This document shows, piece after piece, positions 42,647 to 52,593 of a stretch of 64,000 bases of DNA. The DNA is from the human T2T-CHM13v2.0 reference genome, Homo sapiens: NCBI RefSeq assembly GCF_009914755.1, contig NC_060929.1. The stretch is one strand, 5' to 3'. The translations under genes were made by a program, and so were the position numbers. Position 1 is the stretch's first letter. Each line of letters begins with the position of its first letter. The notes beneath the pieces were generated by a model. That model did no database searches. It had not been told where the DNA came from and was given only the letters and a program-made list of their open reading frames with translations.

Positions 42647-45070
42647 CGCTCCCCTGACCCTCCTCCTCACCCTCATCCTTCTACTCCCCCTGCTTTTCCA
42701 AGGGTCAGCCTCCTCCTGGGTTAAGCACTCACCTTGGGCTGTCCTTTCTCGCTACTCTCTCTCCCTCCCCTGCTGGGTACGGTGGTAGTTTGGGGTGAGG
42801 ATGGTGCTTAAGATCCTATAAGTGGAGGGGGCAGTGGCACAGGCCTTCTCTCCTCTCCGCAAAGATTAACTTAGTGCTGATATCTATGTCTCCTGTAACC
42901 TATGCTGAGTCTATTTCCTTTCTCAACTTGAGTTGTATTACAAAGAGCCATCTGCTGTTCGCTTATGCCTCATAAGTTCCAGGTTCAAGGACCAGGTTTT
43001 GGCTTAGTGGGAGGAAGACAGGCTAGTGGGGTGGGGGCAGGTGATATGTGATTGAGGAAGACTCACCCTACAGCACAGCTAAAATATGTTATCTGCATTC
43101 AAAAAAATAAATAAATAAAGGTTAGTAAGAGGTAGAAGAGAACTTCTGCTTTACATTAAGCTCCCTGCAATTTTTTTCTTCTCACGTTTCTTGTCTCTTA
43201 CTCAAAAAATTTTGCTGTTTGTAGGTGAATAACTCATAGTTGTTGTCTCTTCCCTTAAGTTTCTCTCTCACATAATCACTCTCCATATTTACATTAATTT
43301 AGCACAAGAAACAAGTAAGCAAGTTACTAAAGTTGTTATCTATCGTTGTTGATAGCATGGATTTTCTTAATTCATCTATGTTGAAAGAGATGTACTTTTA
43401 AAAATAAATATACTTAAAGTTTTAATAAACTAGTTACAGGCAGTAAATAGCAGGTATGGGGAGTAAATATTAAGTTAGATTGAGAAGTTACTAGTCATTA
43501 TATTGGTGGTTGCCTTTTTCAGCACACGTGTAGGACTAATTGTCATAGCCAATTTCCAAAACCTGTAAAGACTTCAAGAAGGGAACCATTCTATTTGTGT
43601 CTTGTCTGACTGGGTTACTGGCATCCTGGCTACAGACCTCCATGTCTCTCTGGACCTGCACACACATCTGCAAGACAATTCTGGGATGTCATATTCCCAA
43701 CAACTGCTGGATTGTAGTAAGTCTCCAGCAGGAAGCAATTCATCATTAAGCTTTAGAGGAATAAGAAGAGAATGGAAAATCCTTCTTTCTGCTTATATGT
43801 ACAATAGCCACATTCCAAGTGAATGCCTAGATATTGTTCCTTTCCAGACTTAAACTCTGACAACCAAGAAAAATCACACCTCTGATTTTAGGGCCATTTT
43901 GCTGGGACTTACCTAGGCCCAATGGACACTTAAAAATAATCACTTTATTTAAATATCCTTCAGCCTCCTTCCAGACATGTTTCACAGGCCGAGCTTCCCC
44001 TTTCTCCTGTGTTCCTTTTGTTTTCCAGACACACCACAAACCAAAAGGAGCACACGGCCTGTGTTATACAAAATGTGCAGGAACAGGGTTTCTTGAGTGG
44101 CTACCCAATTAAGTAAATCTCCTTGCCTGGAGGAAACTAAGTTAAAATAACATTGAGGTCTGTCCCCAAGCCCGCAAAAGAGAAGAAAATGTAAAACCAG
44201 AGCTGAAAATTTCCTCTGTTGTGCAATGAGTATTGCAGAATGAGAACTCTCAGATGAAGTTTCAAGGAAGTATTAGCATTTTCCAAAGCACAAGTTCAGA
44301 GCACCCCAGTCTCCTAAATGTTGCAGGTTTGGCTGACATTAGTTTTTGGAAGATTACACTGTTAGAAACCATCAGCAATAAAGTGACTACTTGCTATTAT
44401 AGCCTCTTATTTTATTATATGGTCAAGAGGATTTTCTCTTCTGCTTTTCAGTAATAAACACATGTTGAGAAAGTATGGTATGCTGGGCAGAGACCTGAGA
44501 GATCAGCTGCCTCCCAGGTGTTTCCGGACGTAGCTCATACACATGATTCCAGACACACGAAAGCATGCACCTTCTTTACTAAACCTGCAGACAATGAGAT
44601 TCCACTATCCTTACTGACATTTTTAGGTTGGTGCAACCATTAATGCAAACAGTCTTTCTCCAGGCATAATCATTTCTATGGGCCTACCTGCACAGAAATG
44701 TTCCAATTTGAACCGAGTCACTTGACCAAGACAAGTACCCAATCCAGTACAAGTATAGAAAGGGGGGGAAGAGTCAATTCTAAAAGCAGAGAATTGTAAG
44801 AGAGGGATTGAATAGCTCTTTTAGTGTAAGAATTGGCACTTCATATTTTAACCATAAAAGAACTAAAATATATCCCTCATAAAGCCACATTTTATTGGTA
44901 TGTATGTGGTTCAATAAGGTAAAAACCACCTTAAAGCTAATAAATACTTCATATTCTCCTTGACCTGTGGAATAAATACCCGTGAAGGACAAAGTTCTTG
45001 GGATTATGCATCATCTTGTTGGTAAATTTCCAATAAGTCAATGGTTAAGGCATCACACTAAAACAGGCAG

Positions 45071-45107
<37 letters not shown>

Positions 45108-45108
<1 letters not shown>

Positions 45109-45548
45109 TGAGCAATAAAGCTGTTTATTTCACCTGGGTGCAGGTGGGCTGAGTCCGAAAAGAGAGTCAGCGAAGGGAGATAAGGGTGGGGCCGTTTTAT
45201 AGGATTTGGGTAGGTAAAGGAAAATTACAGTCAAAGGGGGTTTGTTCTCTGGCGGGCAGGAGTGGGGGTCGCAAGGTGCTCAGTGGGCAGGAGTGGGGGT
45301 CACAAGGTGCTCAGTGGGGGAGCTTTTTGAGCCAGGATGAGCCAGGAAAAGGACTTTCACAGGGTAATGTCATCAGTTAAGGCAAGGACCGGCCATTTAC
45401 ACTTCTTTTGTGGTGGAATGTCATCAGTTAAGGTGGGGCAAGGCATATTCACTTCTTTTGTGATTCTTCAGTTACTTCAGGCCATCTGGGCGTATACGTG
45501 CAAGTCACAGGGGATGCGATGGCTTGGCTTGGGCTCAGAGGCCTGACA
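45108..45548 (-). promoter_or_regulatory. LTR7 U3-R (3' LTR lacking U5), TATAAAA at 45195-45201, AATAAA at 45124-45129
   Basis: Starts TGTCAGGCCTCTGAGCCCAAGC right after the polypurine tract AGAAGGCAGGAA (45549-45560); TATA box 30 nt upstream of the R start. Confidence 0.93.
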
Positions 45549-46499
45549 TTCCTGCCTTCTTATATTAATAAGAAAAATAAAACAAAATAGTGTTGAAGTG
45601 TTGGGGCGGCGAAAATTTTTTGGGGGGTGGTATGGAGCGAGAATGGGCGATGTTTCTCAGGGCTGCTTCAAGCGGGATTAGGGGTGGCGTGGGAACCTAG
45701 AGTGGGAGAGATTAAGCTGGAGGGAGGTCGTGTGGTAAGGGGTGATATTGTGGGGATGCTAGAAGAAACATTTGTCGTATAGAATGATTGGTGATGGCCT
45801 GGATACGGTTTTGTATGAATTGAAAAACTAAATGGAATAACAGAAGGAGAAAAACAGGTATAAAAGGTCTAAGAAATGGGACGACTTGATGTCTGATTAG
45901 AGAGTGCTTAAGGAGATTTGGCATAGTCCTGCCAGCAAAGATTATTTATTTACTTCAAGAGTTAAGAGTGGCAGTTTGGGGATAGCACCAGGAGATATCA
46001 GCTGTGATGGCTTGGAGAAACAGTGTAAACAAGAGCAGGGCAGGTATGAGTAGTTGAGAAGGGTGAATAGGAGTATGACTAGACAGAAAATAGTAGGGAT
46101 GACAAGTTTTTTGTTTTTTTTTTTTTTTGAGGCACAGTCTAAGTTGGTCTGGTGTCTGGAATGAGACTGGGGCCTAATAAAAAGGAGCGTCTATACAGGA
46201 CCTTAAATGGGCTGTACCCTGTAGCATTCTGAGGACAGGCCTGAATTCTGAGAAGGGAAAGTGGTAAAAAGTATTGTCCAGTCCTTTTTAAGTTGGTGGC
46301 TGAGCTTGGTGAGGTGTGTTTTTAAAAGACCTTTAGTCCATTCTACTTTTCTTGAAGATGGAGGACCATAAGGGATATAAAGGTTTCACTCAATACTAAG
46401 AGCCTGAAAAACTGCTTGGCTGATATGACTAATAAAGGCTCATCTGTTATCAGACTGTATTGAGGTGGGAAGGCTAAACTGAGGAATTATGTCTGACAG

Positions 46500-47699
46500 A
46501 ACAGAAGAAATGACTGCGGTGGCCTTCTCAGACCCTGTAGGAAAAGCCTCTACTTATTTTGAGGGCCTCTAAAAGTATTAAAGCAGCGGCAGCCACTGCA
46601 CGCAGACATGAGGGCTAGGCTAAAACAGTAAGGTCAAGTTGTTTGGACAGAAAGGCTACAGGGTGTGGTCCTGGCTCTTGTGTAAAAACTCTGACCGCGC
46701 TAACCATGCCTAGGAAGGAAAGGAGTTTTGTAGAAGGTGCTTGGGTTTGAGAGATCAGTCGGACACGATTGGCAGGGAGAGCACGTGTGTTTTTATGAGA
46801 ATTATGCCGAGATAGGTAACAGATGAGGAAGAAATTTGGGCTTGATGGAAGTAATGGGGGCTGTCTGTGAAGCTTTGCAGCAGTACAGCCTAGGTAATTT
46901 GCTGAGCTTGATGGGTGTCAGGGTCAGTCCAAGTGAAAGCGAAGAGAGGCTGGGATTAAGGGTGCAAATGAATAGTAAAGAAAGCATGTTTGAGATCCAG
47001 AACAGAATAATGGGTTGTAGAGGCAGGTATTGAGGATAGGAGAGTATATGGGTTTGGCACCACGGGGTGTATAGGCAAAACAATTTGGTTGATAAGGCGC
47101 AGATCCTGAACTAACTTGTAAGGCTTGTCTGGTTTTAGGACAGGTAAAATGGGGGAATTGTAAGGAGAGTTTATAAGCTTTAAAAGGCCATGCTGTAGCA
47201 GGCAAGTGATAACAGGCTTTAATCTTTTTAAAGCATGCTGCGGGATGGGATATTGGTGTTGAGTGGGGTAAGGGTGATTAGGTTTTAATGAGATGGTAAG
47301 GGGTGCATGATCGGTCGCCAAGGAGGGAGTAGAGGTGTCTTATACTTGTGGGTTAAGGTGGGGGGATAGAAGAGGAGGACGCAAAGGAGGCTTTGGATTG
47401 GGAAGAAGGTCAGCAATGAGATACAGCTGTAGTCCAGGAATAGTCAGGGAAGCAGATAATTTAGTTAAAGTGTCTCAGCCTAATAAGGGAACTGGGCAGG
47501 TGGGGATAACTAAAAAGGAGTGCTTAAAAGAGTATTGTCTAAGTTGGCACCAGAGTTGGGGAGTTTTAAGAGGTTTAGAAGCCTGGCCGTCAATACCCAC
47601 AACAGTTATGGAGGCAAGGGAAACAGGCCCTTGAAAAGAGGGTAACGTGGAGTGAGTAGCCTCCGTATTGATTAAGAAGGGGACGGGCTTACCTTCCAC
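46500..47699 (-). pseudogene. HERV-H pro/pol remnants (protease FLINTEAT with degenerate DTGA motif; RT N-terminus ...LVQDLRLIN...LDLKHAFFTI; integrase fragment)
   Basis: ORFs 47475..47699 and 46956..47321; stops, frameshifts and deletions; no YxDD motif visible. Confidence 0.9.
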
Positions 47700-47899
47700 T
47701 GTGAGAGTTACCCGAAGCTCGGCGTGCGTGATGGTCTAGGGGGCTTCCGAGGCGATCGGGCAGTGTCAGTCTTCAGCCGCTAAGCCGAGAAGATCTGGGA
47801 AGGAGTCGGTCAGAGAGCCTTGGGCCAGAGTTCCAGGGGCTCTGGGAGTGGCTGCCAGGTGAGTTGAACAGTCCGATTTTCACTGGGGTCCCACACAGA

Positions 47900-48990
47900 T
47901 GGGATACGGCTTAGGAGGAATCCCGGGCTGCGGGCATTCCTTGGCCCAGTGGCCAGATTTCCGTCACATGTAGCAAGCTCCTGTGGGAGGAGGTTCTGGA
48001 GGAACGCCTGGCCGCTGCAGTTCAGGCGTTTGGAAGTTCTTGTGTGCTGGAGATGTGGCTGGGGTTTGTCTCACAGTGGAGGCAAGGAATTGCAACTTTT
48101 TTCTATTATGGTACACCTTGAAGGCGAGGTTAATTAAATCCTGTTGTGGGGTTTGAGGGCCGGAATTTAATTTTTGGAGTTTTATTTAATGTCGGGAGCA
48201 GATTGGGTAATAAAATGTATTTTGAGAATAAGACGGCCTTTTGACCTTTTAGGGTCTAGGGCTGTAAAGTGTCTCAGGGTTGCTGCCAAACAAGTCATGA
48301 ACTGGGCTGGATTTTTATATTTGATGAAAAAGAGCCTAAACGCTATCTGATTTGGGATAAAGAAAAAGGAGCATTAACTTTGACTATGCTTTTAGCTCCA
48401 GCCACCTTTTTAAGAGTAAACTGCTGGGCAGGAGGGGGAGGGCTAGTCACGGAACAAAACTGTAAGCCGGACCAGGTGTGAGGAGGGGAGGTGATAAAAA
48501 GATTATAGGGTGGAGGAGCAGAGGCTGAGGAAGAATTGGGACCTAGCTCGGCCTGGCGAGGAGCAAGCAGGCTGGGGAGGAAGGGAGAGGTCAGATGGGT
48601 CTGTAGAAAAGGAAGATTAGAAAGGCTCAGCGACGCTTGGGGTTGGTACTGAGGGGACAGGCGGGAGGGAAAGAAGGAAGATTTGGGACGAGTTGCACTG
48701 GTCACAGAGACTAGGAAGGGACTGATGTGTAAAAGAATGCCTGGACGTCAGGCACCTCAGACTGTTTGCCTATTTTACGACAAGAATTATTTAGATTTTG
48801 CAGGATGGAAAAATTCAAAGTGCCATTTTCTGGCTATTTGGAACTACTGTCGAGTTTGTATTGGGGTCAAGCGGCATTGCAGAAGAAAATAAGGCATTTA
48901 GGTTTTAGGTCAGGTGTGAGTTGGAGAGGTTTTAAGTTTTTGAGAACACAGGCTAAGGGAGAAGAAGGAGGAATGGAAGGTGGAAGGTTG
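47900..48990 (-). pseudogene. HERV-H gag remnants (PPPY late-domain motif; disrupted CCHC knuckle GACYM*RKSGHWAKECP near 47930-47982)
   Basis: ORF 48343..48705 contains APPPYN; hand translation shows a stop at the second zinc-knuckle Cys. Confidence 0.85.
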
Positions 48991-49769
48991 CCCATAGTGA
49001 AGGAGGCAAACCCTGAGAAAAGAGAGCATAGAGACACGGAGGAGGGGAGTGGGGTTCTTGCCCTCCAGAAAAGCAGAGAGGGGGTTGGGACACGGAAATA
49101 AGGGATTGGGGCACAGAGATAAGAGGTCAGGGTGCAGAAATAAGCGATTGGGGGGTTCTTGCCCCCTAGGAAAGCGGGACTTGCCGCTAAGGGTGAAGGA
49201 CCAAGGCAGGCGTCCCTGCGTGGTCTGACACCCTTGAAACATGGCTGAATGATCAGAGAGGCGTCCCTGCAATGATTAAACACCAAGGGAAGGTTGCCTT
49301 CCCAGTCCGTGACCGGCGCCGGAGTTTTGGGTTCACGGATAAAACATGTCTCTTTTGTCTCTACCAGAAAATGAAAGGAATTGAAATTAAGAGAAGGGAG
49401 AGATTGAAGTGTGGCGCCAAGATTGAAAGGAGAAAGAAGTTGAGGGATAGCGAGGGAGGTTGGAGAAGAGAGTAAAAAGAGGCCGCTTACCGGATTTGAA
49501 ATTGGTGAGATGTTTCTTGGGCTGGTCGGTCTGAGGACCTGAGGCCATAGGTGGATGTTTCTCACGGAGCAAAGAGCAGGAGGACAGGGGATTGATCTCC
49601 CAAGGGAGGTCCCCCGATCCGAGTCACGGCACCAAATTTCATGCGCGTCCATGTGAAGAGACCACCAAACAGGCTTTCTGTGAGCAATAAAGCTGTTTAT
49701 TTCACCTGGGTGCAGGTGGGCTGAGTCCGAAAAGAGAGTCAGCCCAGGTAGTCTTAATGACAAATTCAT
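48867..49769 (-). CDS. Putative 300-aa ESRG-like ORF from the HERV-H R-U5-leader, initiated at a flank-derived ATG (coding status unproven)
   Basis: ORF track 48867..49775; ATG at 49769-49767; TLFSDSAHLHPGEINS...WCRDSDRGTSLGRSIPCPPALCS closely resembles the recalled ESRG/HESRG predicted protein. Confidence 0.3.
   Translation of the reverse strand: MNLSLRLPGLTLFSDSAHLHPGEINSFIAHRKPVWWSLHMDAHEIWCRDSDRGTSLGRSIPCPPALCSVRNIHLWPQVLRPTSPRNISPISNPVSGLFLLSSPTSLAIPQLLSPFNLGATLQSLPSLNFNSFHFLVETKETCFIREPKTPAPVTDWEGNLPLVFNHCRDASLIIQPCFKGVRPRRDACLGPSPLAASPAFLGGKNPPIAYFCTLTSYLCAPIPYFRVPTPSLLFWRARTPLPSSVSLCSLFSGFASFTMGNLPPSIPPSSPLACVLKNLKPLQLTPDLKPKCLIFFCNAA
49617..49634 (-). other. Primer binding site complementary to tRNA-His (TGGTGCCGTGACTCGGAT)
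   Basis: 18-nt match to the 3' end of tRNA-His directly after U5 (...CATGAAA); defines the HERV-H family. Confidence 0.95.
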
Positions 49770-52593
49770 ATCCAAAAACCAGCACTATCAGACCACAAGT
49801 TACAGATATCTTTGAATGAATTTAGTTAACCATTAATTAAGTTTAGCACACACTAAACCTAGTTTAGATTCACCTCCCCTCCTCCAAGTCCCCACAAAGA
49901 TCAATTACACAGGAGTTACCTGGTTTATTTCCATATTAATGCTTGATATCTAATATGGCTTGTTAACATAGCTTACCATATTTTCTGGGCATAAGTGTTT
50001 ATGGGAAAAACTTCAGATTTATACAAGGTTTTGGACATGTGACTCATATAAACTGGAATAACAGCATTGTTGCTAAAACTTGCCGCTTGCTTTGAAGCCT
50101 CATCATACTGTTCTTGGGAAACCATTAAGCAAAATGCCCTGAAGGGTAGGAGAAATTGCATTGAGCAATAAAATGTCAACAAACTGCAGAATTTGAACAT
50201 CAAGCACTTTCATCTAAATATGCCCTTCTCTCCTTTCACTTGGCAGGGGTTTGGTTTTTGAAAAGTAATAAACTCTAGCACTCTAGTTGACCTGGGATGT
50301 GTTTAAGAAATCAAATCTTAGAGCCAGAAGCAGTATAACCTTTAATGTGGACTCCCCACCTCGGAAAAACCATAGAATGAGAAATATAAACAGAAAAGTA
50401 GAACAGAAATATATATCTCAATTGTCTAGATATTTAATTTTTTTAAAGAGGGTACACACCAAAACCCTAGGCCAGAAGAAACAATCTTAAATCTGTTTAA
50501 ACAGGTGCTCAGTTCTTACTATCATCAACAGCAAATGACTATAATCATAGCACAAAATAAGAAGTATATGAACAAGGAAAACCTATTCATAAGTCTGCAT
50601 AACTTTTATAAACCTGGGATGGACACAGCTCAATCTCAGAGCAGGTTTGCAGTCAAGAAACAGCTGCCCACAGCCAAAAGTAATTTCAAAACAACTGAAA
50701 CCCTTCACTTATGTTTCTTAAGAACCATAAAGGGGATCTACATTCAAAGACCATACCAATATTTATTAAAACCCCTTTCGTCTTCTACCCTTCCCCCGCA
50801 AACTTGCTGCCAATCCAACACATTACAATTCATGATTCCCCATAACTTGTCTCAACACTTTATTCTATTTTCTGTCTGTCTTTACCCTCTCTTTTCTATA
50901 TCACTTTATTATTCAGACTGACCTTACCTCTCTCCTAGCAGAAAAGAATCCCTACTTACAGGAAGAAAAAGGATCTAGAAATTGATCTGGTAAATAGAGA
51001 ATTCCCTTAGGCTTGGTAGGGTAGAGGAATAGATGGAAAACAACCCACGTGATGAATATGATCCCAACTTATATATTTAACTGTATCATGAATTAAAAAC
51101 TCCTGAAGGGTAAGAGCTGTAACTTCAGTGTACCCTAAAACTGAGACCTAAAAAATCTGGGAGACATTATATGGATACATGCTGTTTGCATAGTTCTAGT
51201 GATAATGAATGTTTGCCTTGAATGACTCATGTTGATTAAAGTACAGAGAAGGACATCTCTGTTTCGTACCTCAAAAGAGTCAAGTTTCCTTTTGGAACTA
51301 TAAATCTAATAGGTTACCAAATGGAGGTCTAGAATTTCTTGGAGAAGGAAGGGGCAGGAGCCATAACAGAATGCCAGTCATGGACAATGGGAAATGTTCA
51401 TACCTGCATGTAGAGAACATTGTCTCATGGTTTGGAATATTAAATCAGGGATTGCATATACATGACTAGCATTCATCTTCTAATAAGTTCTATCCTGCAA
51501 AATTGGGGATTGTGAATCCAAATGCTTAGAAGAGTCAGGCTGTGTCCTAATTGAGTGACATTGGCAGACTGATAACTATGGCAATATGAGAGAACATATC
51601 CTATCTAAGCAGGAGTAATTTTTCTATTTCTACTAATTCTTATCATGTAGGAATGCTGGCTCAGTATTGTCAGATTCTCAGTGTTCCAAGATAGCCTGAA
51701 AATCCAAATGCTATATGTGATATTCCTCAAATTTTAGGTGTTGGCAGTTTAATATTTTTTATCACTATGACGACCAAATAGCCACACCTGTGGGCTGATG
51801 CAGCTCACAGACTACGTCACTCCTGGAAAAAAATAATAATAATCAACCTTCAAGAAGCAATGAATATAATATATAAATATTTTGTCTCTACTTGATTCAA
51901 TATGAATATTCAATAGAAAGAATTTTCTGCAAAAACCATTCACCAACAAATAAAAAGGCTTAGAAGAAATCAAACAAGTGGCAACTTTGCAAAAAAATGA
52001 ATTCAACTAAACATATAAAAAATGTAGTCTCAGGCCGAGAAAAAATCAGAATGAAATAGGAAACTATCTTGAAAGAGGATACCCTTACCCAACAATTCCA
52101 CTTATTAGAAACCATACAAAAAAATTTTAATTGCACAAAGATTAATATATAAATATATTCATTGCAACAATTTGTAACTGAAAAATTAGAAACTACCAAG
52201 TTAATAGGTGCTTGGTTTAAATAAATTTTGTATGACATATCTACAATGTGCAAAACTATACACTCATTAAAAATGATGCTGCAGAAAATTTATTTAGTGG
52301 AAAGATTTTCTTGATATTATTAAAAACACAGGTAATAAATACAAAGAAAGTATGATTTCATTTTCTTACATGTTCGTATCTTTGTGTGCATATGTCTGGG
52401 TCAAAGAAGAAATTACAAAGGAAATTTAAAGATAGTTTGAATGAATGACAGTGAAAAAATAACAAAACTTGTGGCATGCACCTAAAGCAGTGCTTAGTAG
52501 TAAATTTTTAGATTTTAATGCTTATACTAGAAAACAAGTAACATTTAAAATAATTATATGTTTCCACATTAAGAAGCTATAAAAAGAAAAGCA

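What the first reader, a model, noticed from the sequence alone, without database searches (positions are those of the whole stretch)
45064..49755. HERV-H that is an L1-made processed copy of the viral RNA, not a provirus
Seen: the - strand reads TSD-G-R-U5-PBS...PPT-U3-R-A35-TSD. The 5' LTR has no U3, and the 3' LTR has no U5, ending 16 nt after AATAAA in a pure poly(A). The TSD is 11 bp (AAGACTRCCTG, one mismatch) and the upstream junction is TT|AAGA. Established: integrase-made HERV-H proviruses have two complete LTRs and ~5-bp TSDs. The mRNA-like layout, poly(A), long TSD and TT/AAAA-like site are hallmarks of L1 target-primed reverse transcription, common for HERV-W but unusual for HERV-H. 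Inference: the full-length unspliced HERV-H genomic RNA was mobilised in trans by L1 ORF2p.
Basis: partly seen in the sequence, partly recalled or inferred. Interest (0 to 1): 0.85.

Follow-up and report, generated by a model that had tools for sequence, protein, structure and literature searches.

The report
L1-made retrocopy of HERV-H RNA

Summary
On the - strand the locus reads: 11-bp TSD (10 of 11 match), one untemplated G, R-U5-PBS, internal region, U3-R, 33 pure A, TSD. U3 and U5 each occur once in the 64-kb window; R occurs twice and is identical 64/64. R starts 30 nt after TATAAAA. The tail starts 16 nt after AATAAA. The insertion site is TT|AAGA. A two-LTR HERV-H provirus on C12 of the same genome has complete LTRs and a 5-bp TSD. 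The element is collinear with that provirus apart from the missing 377-nt 5' U3 and the missing 3' U5. L1 target-primed reverse transcription of a capped, polyadenylated, unspliced HERV-H RNA is the best explanation (about 0.93).

The layout is recurrent, not rare. A pattern scan of the window's own genome found 51 LTR7 R-poly(A) junctions against 0 in the reversed control. Of the 41 I could read, 10 are full-length unspliced copies including this one, 2 are spliced, 1 is R-only, 5 are 5'-truncated with 9-17-bp TSDs, 5 are VNTR-LTR7 chimeras and 18 are unresolved. It is a new member of a known kind. No primate orthologue could be examined.

The parts
49745..49755 (-). 5' target-site duplication AAGACTACCTG. 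It is preceded by TT, so the insertion site reads TT|AAGA.
   Evidence: Matches the 3' copy at 10 of 11 positions. Chance 2.65e-5 per registration.
49744..49744 (-). One untemplated G between the TSD and R, read as a cap-derived base.
   Evidence: The base before R in this copy's own 3' U3-R junction is C. PMC11702581 (passage read) says full-length L1-mediated insertions typically carry an extra G reflecting mRNA capping.
49680..49743 (-). 5' R (64 nt). It begins at the transcription start and has no U3 upstream.
   Evidence: 64/64 identical to the 3' R.
49637..49679 (-). U5 (43 nt). It is the only U5 in the window.
   Evidence: Its end ...CATGAAA equals the 3' LTR end of the C12 provirus.
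49617..49634 (-). Primer-binding site TGGTGCCGTGACTCGGAT.
   Evidence: The assignment to tRNA-His is recalled and was not tested here.
49491..49720 (-). Annotated exon of lncRNA SNCAIP-AS3. It runs from an AG acceptor inside the 5' R to the HERV-H leader splice donor (ccg|gtaagc).
   Evidence: Hub annotation table. The AG and GT dinucleotides were read.
45549..49616 (-). Unspliced internal region: leader, gag remnant, protease remnant (47478-47735), a weak RT fragment (46959-47339) and the 3' remnant. All frames are broken.
   Evidence: Collinear with the C12 provirus at 95.9% over 4153 columns, with only two gaps of 8 nt or more (42 and 13 nt). The longest stop-to-stop frame on the - strand is 305 aa, in the leader. 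Pfam: RVP E=1e-6; RVT_1 E=0.0029, below its cut-off.
47687..47699 (-). Internal splice donor GTGGAAG|gtaagc (exon end 47693). It is retained unspliced here, used in the spliced C22 retrocopy, and is the end of exon 1 of LOC107986446.
   Evidence: hub annotation.
45172..45548 (-). 3' U3 (377 nt), starting TGTCAGG. TATAAAA lies at 45201-45195, 30 nt before R.
   Evidence: 98% identical to the C12 5' LTR over 441 nt. A RefSeq enhancer (45027-45903) overlaps it (hub table).
45108..45171 (-). 3' R (64 nt) with AATAAA at 45129-45124. It ends 16 nt after the signal and no U5 follows.
45075..45107 (-). Pure poly(A) tail of 33 A.
   Evidence: The A-run is 35 at 45107-45073, and its last 2 A belong to the TSD.
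45064..45074 (-). 3' target-site duplication AAGACTGCCTG.

Best explanation
This is a LINE-1-made processed pseudogene (retrocopy) of a full-length, unspliced HERV-H genomic RNA.

Proposed sequence of events:
1. A source provirus of the common deleted form was transcribed from its 5' LTR start site, 30 nt after TATAAAA.
2. The RNA was capped and then polyadenylated 16 nt after AATAAA, at the R/U5 border of its 3' LTR.
3. L1 ORF2p, acting in trans, nicked the target at 5'-TCTT/AA-3' on the window's + strand (TT|AAGA on the element strand).
4. It primed on the poly(A) tail and copied the RNA to its capped end, which left one extra G.
5. Second-strand cleavage 11 bp away produced the TSD.

Shown here: the anatomy, the junctions, and the contrast with an integrase-made provirus. 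Inferred: that L1 was the enzyme, and the order of events.

Today the copy has no 5' promoter. Its R-U5-leader serves as an exon of the lncRNA SNCAIP-AS3, which starts upstream (annotation). Its intact 3' U3 overlaps an annotated enhancer.
For: - Layout TSD-G-R-U5-PBS...U3-R-A33-TSD with exact boundaries.
- U3 and U5 occur once each in the 64 kb; R occurs twice and is 64/64 identical.
- R begins 30 nt after TATAAAA, and the tail begins 16 nt after AATAAA.
- The TSD matches at 10 of 11 positions, with chance 2.65e-5 per registration.
- Same-genome control: the C12:14.58M provirus has complete LTRs and a 5-bp TSD, GTTTG. Our element is collinear with it at about 96%, minus exactly 377 nt of 5' U3 and the 3' U5.
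- The extra G is untemplated. In 12 of the 13 TSS-start copies the base before R in the copy's own 3' U3-R junction is C or T; the 13th, the R-only copy, has no U3.
- The same signature recurs. 51 R-poly(A) junctions were found against 0 in the reversed control. Of the 41 read, 13 start at the R start with TSDs of about 10 to about 20 bp (one contains an indel). Of those 13, 11 carry an extra G, including one with TG (C7:117.78M); 1 has none and 1 is ambiguous.
- Five 5'-truncated copies have 9-17-bp TSDs abutting the homology end.
- The locus meets the published criteria for HERV-W processed pseudogenes: R-U5 / U3-R, poly(A), TT/AAAA motif, 5-15-bp TSD (PMC5016936, passage read).
- An extra G at full-length L1-mediated junctions is reported in PMC11702581 (passage read).
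Against: - No orthologous empty site was examined, so the pre-integration state is inferred only.
- The nick site is TT|AAGA, one base off the TT|AAAA consensus.
- No near-identical source provirus was found. The best internal matches are 95-96%, and only 40 of 1235 candidates were scored. The best LTR match is 99%.
- That L1 rather than another reverse transcriptase did the copying rests on signature, not on experiment.
Confidence: 0.93

Rival explanations
1. An ordinary integrase-made HERV-H provirus that later lost its 5' U3 and its 3' U5 by deletions, with an A-run arising secondarily.
For: HERV-H loci do carry many deletions, and this copy lacks 42 and 13 nt relative to the C12 provirus.
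Against: - Two independent deletions would have to end exactly at the transcription start and at the polyadenylation site.
- They would also have to add 33 pure A and one G, and leave an 11-bp repeat directly abutting both new ends.
- No 5-bp TSD of the kind seen at the C12 provirus is present.
- Twelve other loci show the same boundaries.
Confidence: 0.02
2. A retrocopy of HERV-H RNA made by a reverse transcriptase other than L1 ORF2p, for example a retroviral RT with integrase-independent capture at a DNA break.
For: I did not test which enzyme acted. The nick site deviates by one base from TT|AAAA.
Against: - Retroviral reverse transcription does not copy the poly(A) tail, and it regenerates full LTRs.
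- A poly(A)-primed copy, an 11-bp TSD and an A-rich nick site preceded by TT are the L1 signature.
- By my reading of the junctions printed, 8 of the 13 TSS-start copies have TT directly before an A-rich TSD.
Confidence: 0.03
3. The locus is a DNA-level duplicate (segmental duplication) of a processed copy that formed elsewhere.
For: Three of the VNTR-LTR7 chimeras on C9 share flanks and look like segmental duplicates.
Against: - The TSD directly flanks this element.
- Searches with the LTR part and the internal region found no other 100% or near-100% copy. The best were 99% over the LTR part and 95-96% internally.
- The tail-junction pattern hit with this R variant plus these flanks is unique.
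Confidence: 0.01

Closest known systems
HERV-W processed pseudogenes (Pavlicek et al. 2002, as quoted in Grandi et al. 2016, PMC5016936)
   Same: 5' R-U5 and 3' U3-R truncated LTRs, a poly(A) tail, a TT/AAAA-type site, and a TSD within the 5-15-bp range (passage read). All were met here.
   Different: - A different retroviral family (HERV-H/LTR7).
- In HERV-W the pseudogenes outnumber the proviruses: 135 against 65 of 213 loci.
- Here, R-poly(A) junctions number 51, set against roughly 3055 first-look LTR candidates and 1235 internal-region candidates. These are rough, lower-bound figures.
HERV-K(HML-2) processed pseudogene at 2q32.1 (Schmitt et al. 2013, PMC3590776)
   Same: A single retroviral transcript copied by L1, with a 13-nt TSD and a poly(A) stretch (passage read).
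   Different: That locus is truncated and has an 8-nt A-stretch about 90 bp past the signal. Ours is full length, from the cap site to the canonical poly(A) site.
Spliced HERV-H sequences in genomic DNA (Goodchild, Freeman and Mager 1995, Virology 206:164)
   Same: Evidence that HERV-H RNAs were reverse-transcribed back into the genome. [quoted passage not shown]
   Different: I could not read the paper itself. The citing text suggests copies with proviral structure. Ours is unspliced and lacks the outer LTR parts. The C22 and C12:113.99M loci found here are spliced and L1-type.
Cellular processed pseudogenes and full-length L1 insertions
   Same: Cap-to-poly(A) copy, extra G at the 5' junction, TSD, A-rich nick site (PMC11702581, passage read).
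   Different: The template is a retroviral genomic RNA, so the copy carries a complete U3 promoter/enhancer at its 3' end.

Membership tests
L1-mediated retroviral processed pseudogene (criteria quoted in PMC5016936) | The 5' LTR is R-U5 only, with no U3. | tested here: met
   R starts at 49743, right after the TSD and one G. U3 occurs only at 45548-45172 in the 64-kb window.
L1-mediated retroviral processed pseudogene (criteria quoted in PMC5016936) | The 3' LTR is U3-R only, with no U5. | tested here: met
   R ends at 45108. U5 occurs only at 49679-49637.
L1-mediated retroviral processed pseudogene (criteria quoted in PMC5016936) | A poly(A) tail at the polyadenylation site. | tested here: met
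   33 pure A start 16 nt after AATAAA.
L1-mediated retroviral processed pseudogene (criteria quoted in PMC5016936) | A variable-length TSD (5-15 bp) that directly flanks the copy. | tested here: met
   11 bp, 10 of 11 identical. Chance 2.65e-5 per registration.
L1-mediated retroviral processed pseudogene (criteria quoted in PMC5016936) | A TT/AAAA-type insertion motif. | tested here: met
   TT|AAGA, one base off the consensus.
L1-mediated retroviral processed pseudogene (criteria quoted in PMC5016936) | An empty pre-integration site with one copy of the TSD in an outgroup. | not testable with these tools
   No primate genome is held.
Integrase-made HERV-H provirus | Two complete U3-R-U5 LTRs. 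| tested here: not met
   The control provirus C12:14.58M has both.
Integrase-made HERV-H provirus | A short TSD (5 bp) next to TG...A LTR ends. | tested here: not met
   An 11-bp TSD here; 5-bp GTTTG at the control provirus.
HERV-H / LTR7 family | Sequence similarity over LTR and internal region to the high-copy family. | tested here: met
94-99% to 40 scored LTR copies (3055 candidates). 91-96% to the scored internal copies, 40 of 1235 candidates scored.
HERV-H / LTR7 family | A primer-binding site for tRNA-His. | not tested
   An 18-nt PBS is present at 49634-49617. Its complementarity to tRNA-His is recalled.

The most novel reading that the evidence does not exclude
HERV-H is a second HERV family that L1 copied repeatedly, and this has gone largely unrecorded. 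Reviews call HERV-W the 'sole' or 'only' family commonly copied by LINEs (PMC5537654 abstract; PMC3758188 passage). Yet this genome holds at least 51 LTR7 R-poly(A) retrocopies. Among them are at least 10 cap-to-tail unspliced genomic-RNA copies, spliced forms, an R-only form and VNTR-LTR7 chimeras. L1 would thus have scattered promoterless HERV-H exons and intact LTR7 U3 enhancers independently of retroviral integration. The chr5 copy has the longest pure tail of the 41 read and may be among the youngest.
Probability: 0.35. Interest if true: 0.55.

Novelty: new member of a known kind. Interest (0 to 1): 0.38.

Why it matters
- Such copies are counted as 'proviruses' in HERV catalogues. PMC4724089 says it did not distinguish processed pseudogenes from proviruses.
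- They cannot be dated by LTR-LTR divergence.
- They cannot collapse to solo LTRs in the usual way, because they share only a 64-nt R.
- They have no 5' promoter, but they deliver a complete U3 to a new place. At this locus the promoterless 5' end is an exon of SNCAIP-AS3, and the 3' U3 lies under an annotated enhancer.
- At the family level, the census suggests that L1 copying of HERV-H RNA was recurrent. HERV-H RNA is abundant in early embryonic cells (recalled). This qualifies the statement that HERV-W is the only HERV family so mobilised.

Tried and rejected
- **Source element.** The C12:14.58M provirus matched the 3' LTR part at 99% but only 95.9% internally. No scored internal match exceeded 96% (40 of 1235 candidates scored). 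No source could be named.
- **Full census.** Ten junctions were therefore never read.
- **Relaxed TSD search.** For 17 truncated copies it found no TSD at the BLAST homology boundary; shifted-boundary controls gave 1 hit in 134 trials. Together with the complex C16 locus, which was left out of that search, they stay unclassified.
- **False 5' boundary.** An apparent common 5' end at element position about 3244 came from a deletion in my reference copies. It disappeared when longer copies were used as subjects.
- **Literature.** Searches for 'HERV-H'/'HERVH' with 'processed pseudogene', for 'LTR7' with 'processed pseudogene' and 'target site duplication', for 'HERVH' with 'L1-mediated', and a five-term search turned up no paper describing an L1-made HERV-H class. 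I looked only at the listed top hits and selected passages. Pavlicek et al. 2002 (PMC155283) is not held, and Goodchild et al. 1995 was not readable. Either may already report such copies.
Full report
**1. Observation**

Read on the - strand, the locus is, in order:
- flank ...tcatt
- AAGACTACCTG (49755-49745)
- G (49744)
- R, GCTGACTC...GCTCAC (49743-49680, 64 nt)
- U5, AGAAAGCC...CATGAAA (49679-49637)
- TT, then the PBS (49634-49617)
- about 4.07 kb of internal sequence
- U3, TGTCAGG... (45548-45172)
- R (45171-45108)
- an A-run of 35 (45107-45073)
- GACTGCCTG up to 45064, then flank ttttag.

Exact coordinates come and the A-run. The 11-mers match at 10 of 11 positions. The last two A of the run belong to the 3' TSD, so the tail proper is 33 A.

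Both R copies are identical at 64 of 64 positions. U3 and U5 each occur only once in the whole 64-kb window, so no displaced LTR fragment is nearby. TATAAAA begins 30 nt before the R start, and the 3' R ends 16 nt after AATAAA.

As a chance control, 53 of 2,000,000 random 11-mer pairs from the window match with at most 1 mismatch.

**2. What the element is**

The window's own genome could be searched.
- The LTR part hits 40 scored copies at 94-99% identity, from 3055 first-look candidates.
- The internal 2.7 kb hits copies at 91-96% over most of its length, with 40 of 1235 candidates scored.

The element therefore belongs to a very abundant LTR-retroelement family.

A two-LTR copy at C12:14.58M served as an integrase-type control. 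It has complete LTRs (TGTCAGG...CATGAAA) and a 5-bp TSD, GTTTG. Our element is collinear with it:
- 95.9% identity over 4153 columns.
- Only two gaps of 8 nt or more, of 42 nt in the leader repeats and 13 nt.
- The R start aligns to position 378 of that provirus, so exactly the 377-nt U3 is missing at the 5' end. The U5 is missing at the 3' end.

The copy retains the sequence downstream of the leader splice donor (exon end 49491) and of an internal donor (47693), so it derives from unspliced RNA.

Coding capacity is gone.
- The longest stop-to-stop frame on the - strand is 305 aa, in the leader. All the others are 134 aa or shorter.
- Of the ten - strand frames given to Pfam, one matched a retroviral protease remnant (E=1e-6) and one gave a sub-threshold RT fragment (E=0.0029).

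**3. Mechanism**

The layout is that of an mRNA running from cap site to poly(A) site. Retroviral replication regenerates full LTRs and does not copy the tail.

The features that point to L1 are:
- a tail-primed copy
- an 11-bp TSD
- a nick site TT|AAGA (5'-TCTT/AA-3' on the opposite strand)
- a single untemplated G at the 5' junction.

This is the signature of L1 target-primed reverse transcription. It also matches the published definition of HERV-W processed pseudogenes (PMC5016936, passage read).

An extra G 'reflecting 5'-mRNA capping' is reported at most full-length L1-mediated junctions (PMC11702581, passage read). Here the base before R in the element's own 3' U3-R junction is C, so the G is not templated.

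That L1 ORF2p was the enzyme is inferred from this signature and is not shown.

**4. How rare is it?**

A pattern for the R end followed by nine A, with up to 2 mismatches, gave 51 hits in the genome (23 forward, 28 reverse) and 0 with the reversed control pattern. I could read 41 of the 51. All 41 have A-tails of 9-37 nt by my tail rule.

| Class | Count of 41 | Loci and notes |
|---|---|---|
| Full-length unspliced, starting at the R start with no U3 | 10 | This locus; C2:199.74M, C5:12.43M, C6:81.69M, C10:110.46M, C11:81.06M, C13:34.02M, C7:117.78M, C8:89.87M, C8:116.95M. Sizes 4.1-5.5 kb. TSDs about 10 to about 20 bp (the C11 one has an indel) |
| Starting at the R start, spliced | 2 | C22:28.2M, which uses donor 47693; and C12:113.99M |
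| R-only copy of about 70 nt | 1 | C14:33.49M, TSD 13 |
| 5'-truncated, with 9-17-bp TSDs abutting the end of homology | 5 | - |
| VNTR-LTR7 chimeras | 5 | - |
| Unclassified | 18 | 17 with no TSD found, plus the complex C16 locus |

Among the 13 copies that start at the R start, 11 carry an extra G, including one with TG (C7:117.78M). One has none (C2:199.74M) and one is ambiguous (C8:116.95M). By my reading of the printed junctions, 8 of the 13 have TT directly before an A-rich TSD.

So the chr5 locus is a clean example of a recurrent class. It has the longest pure tail of the 41 copies read.

**5. Age and source**

No near-identical source was found. The best matches were 99% over the LTR part and 96% internally, and scoring was not exhaustive.

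The identical R copies, the 10-of-11 TSD and the 33 pure A suggest that this is not among the oldest copies. This is weak evidence. Dating needs primate orthologues, which are not held here.

**6. Present-day context** (from the hub annotation; I only checked the splice dinucleotides)

- SNCAIP-AS3 starts upstream at 49992. It splices into an AG inside the 5' R (exon 49720-49491) and leaves at the HERV-H leader donor. This fits a promoterless 5' end.
- Exon 1 of the predicted LOC107986446 ends at the internal donor 47693.
- A RefSeq enhancer (45027-45903) covers the 3' U3-R.

**7. Literature**

- Schmitt et al. 2013 note that retrotransposed HERV-H and HERV-W elements 'have been described before', citing Goodchild 1995 and Pavlicek 2002 (PMC3590776, passage). 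I could read neither cited paper.
- Vargiu et al. 2016 did not separate processed pseudogenes from proviruses (PMC4724089, passages).
- Five searches gave no paper on an L1-made HERV-H class among the listed hits.

**8. Verdict**

The kind is known (L1-made retroviral processed pseudogene). The locus is a new, well-preserved member, and the family-level frequency is higher than reviews imply. Interest is moderate.

Noticed in passing
L018, L019, L020, L030, L045 (C9:42408622, C9:47593848, C9:77276266, C5:29035247, C13:24229113): Five R-poly(A) loci are chimeras. A GC-rich, SVA-like VNTR is joined at one fixed point (...CTCACATCCC|AGATCCACAAAAG) to the 3' part of an LTR7-like U3, followed by R and an A-tail. 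In L045 an exact 15-nt repeat of the 3' flank lies 2.7 kb upstream, right before a CpG-rich stretch that looks like a host 5' exon (striatin-like by recall). This looks like a small retrocopy family of a chimeric RNA that ended at an LTR7 poly(A) site. The three C9 copies share flanks.
   Followed up: partly
L025 (C14:33487230-33487264, - strand): An R-only retrocopy: a 13-bp TSD, an extra G, about 70 nt of R, then an A-tail. The RNA started at the LTR7 start site and was polyadenylated in the same R.
   Followed up: partly
L010 4122-6960 (C22:28.2M) and L040 717-1558 (C12:113.99M): Spliced HERV-H RNAs copied by L1, with TSDs of 12 and 15 bp and an extra G. The C22 copy joins the donor equivalent to window 47693 to the acceptor equivalent to window 45696. 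The C12 copy uses the leader donor and a small internal exon.
   Followed up: partly
window 49491-49720 and 47693-47732 (- strand): Annotated lncRNA exons reuse HERV-H splice sites of the promoterless copy. SNCAIP-AS3 enters at an AG inside the 5' R and exits at the leader donor. Exon 1 of LOC107986446 ends at the internal donor.
   Followed up: partly
window 49075-49153 (+ coordinates): Three to four 21-nt tandem repeats lie in the HERV-H leader. Their copy number differs from the C12 provirus by 42 nt.
   Followed up: no
L049 (C16:76427309-76436543): A complex locus. A HERV-H with a complete 5' LTR has a 3' R followed by an A-rich run, and a second HERV-H internal region lies directly upstream. 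It was not classified.
   Followed up: no
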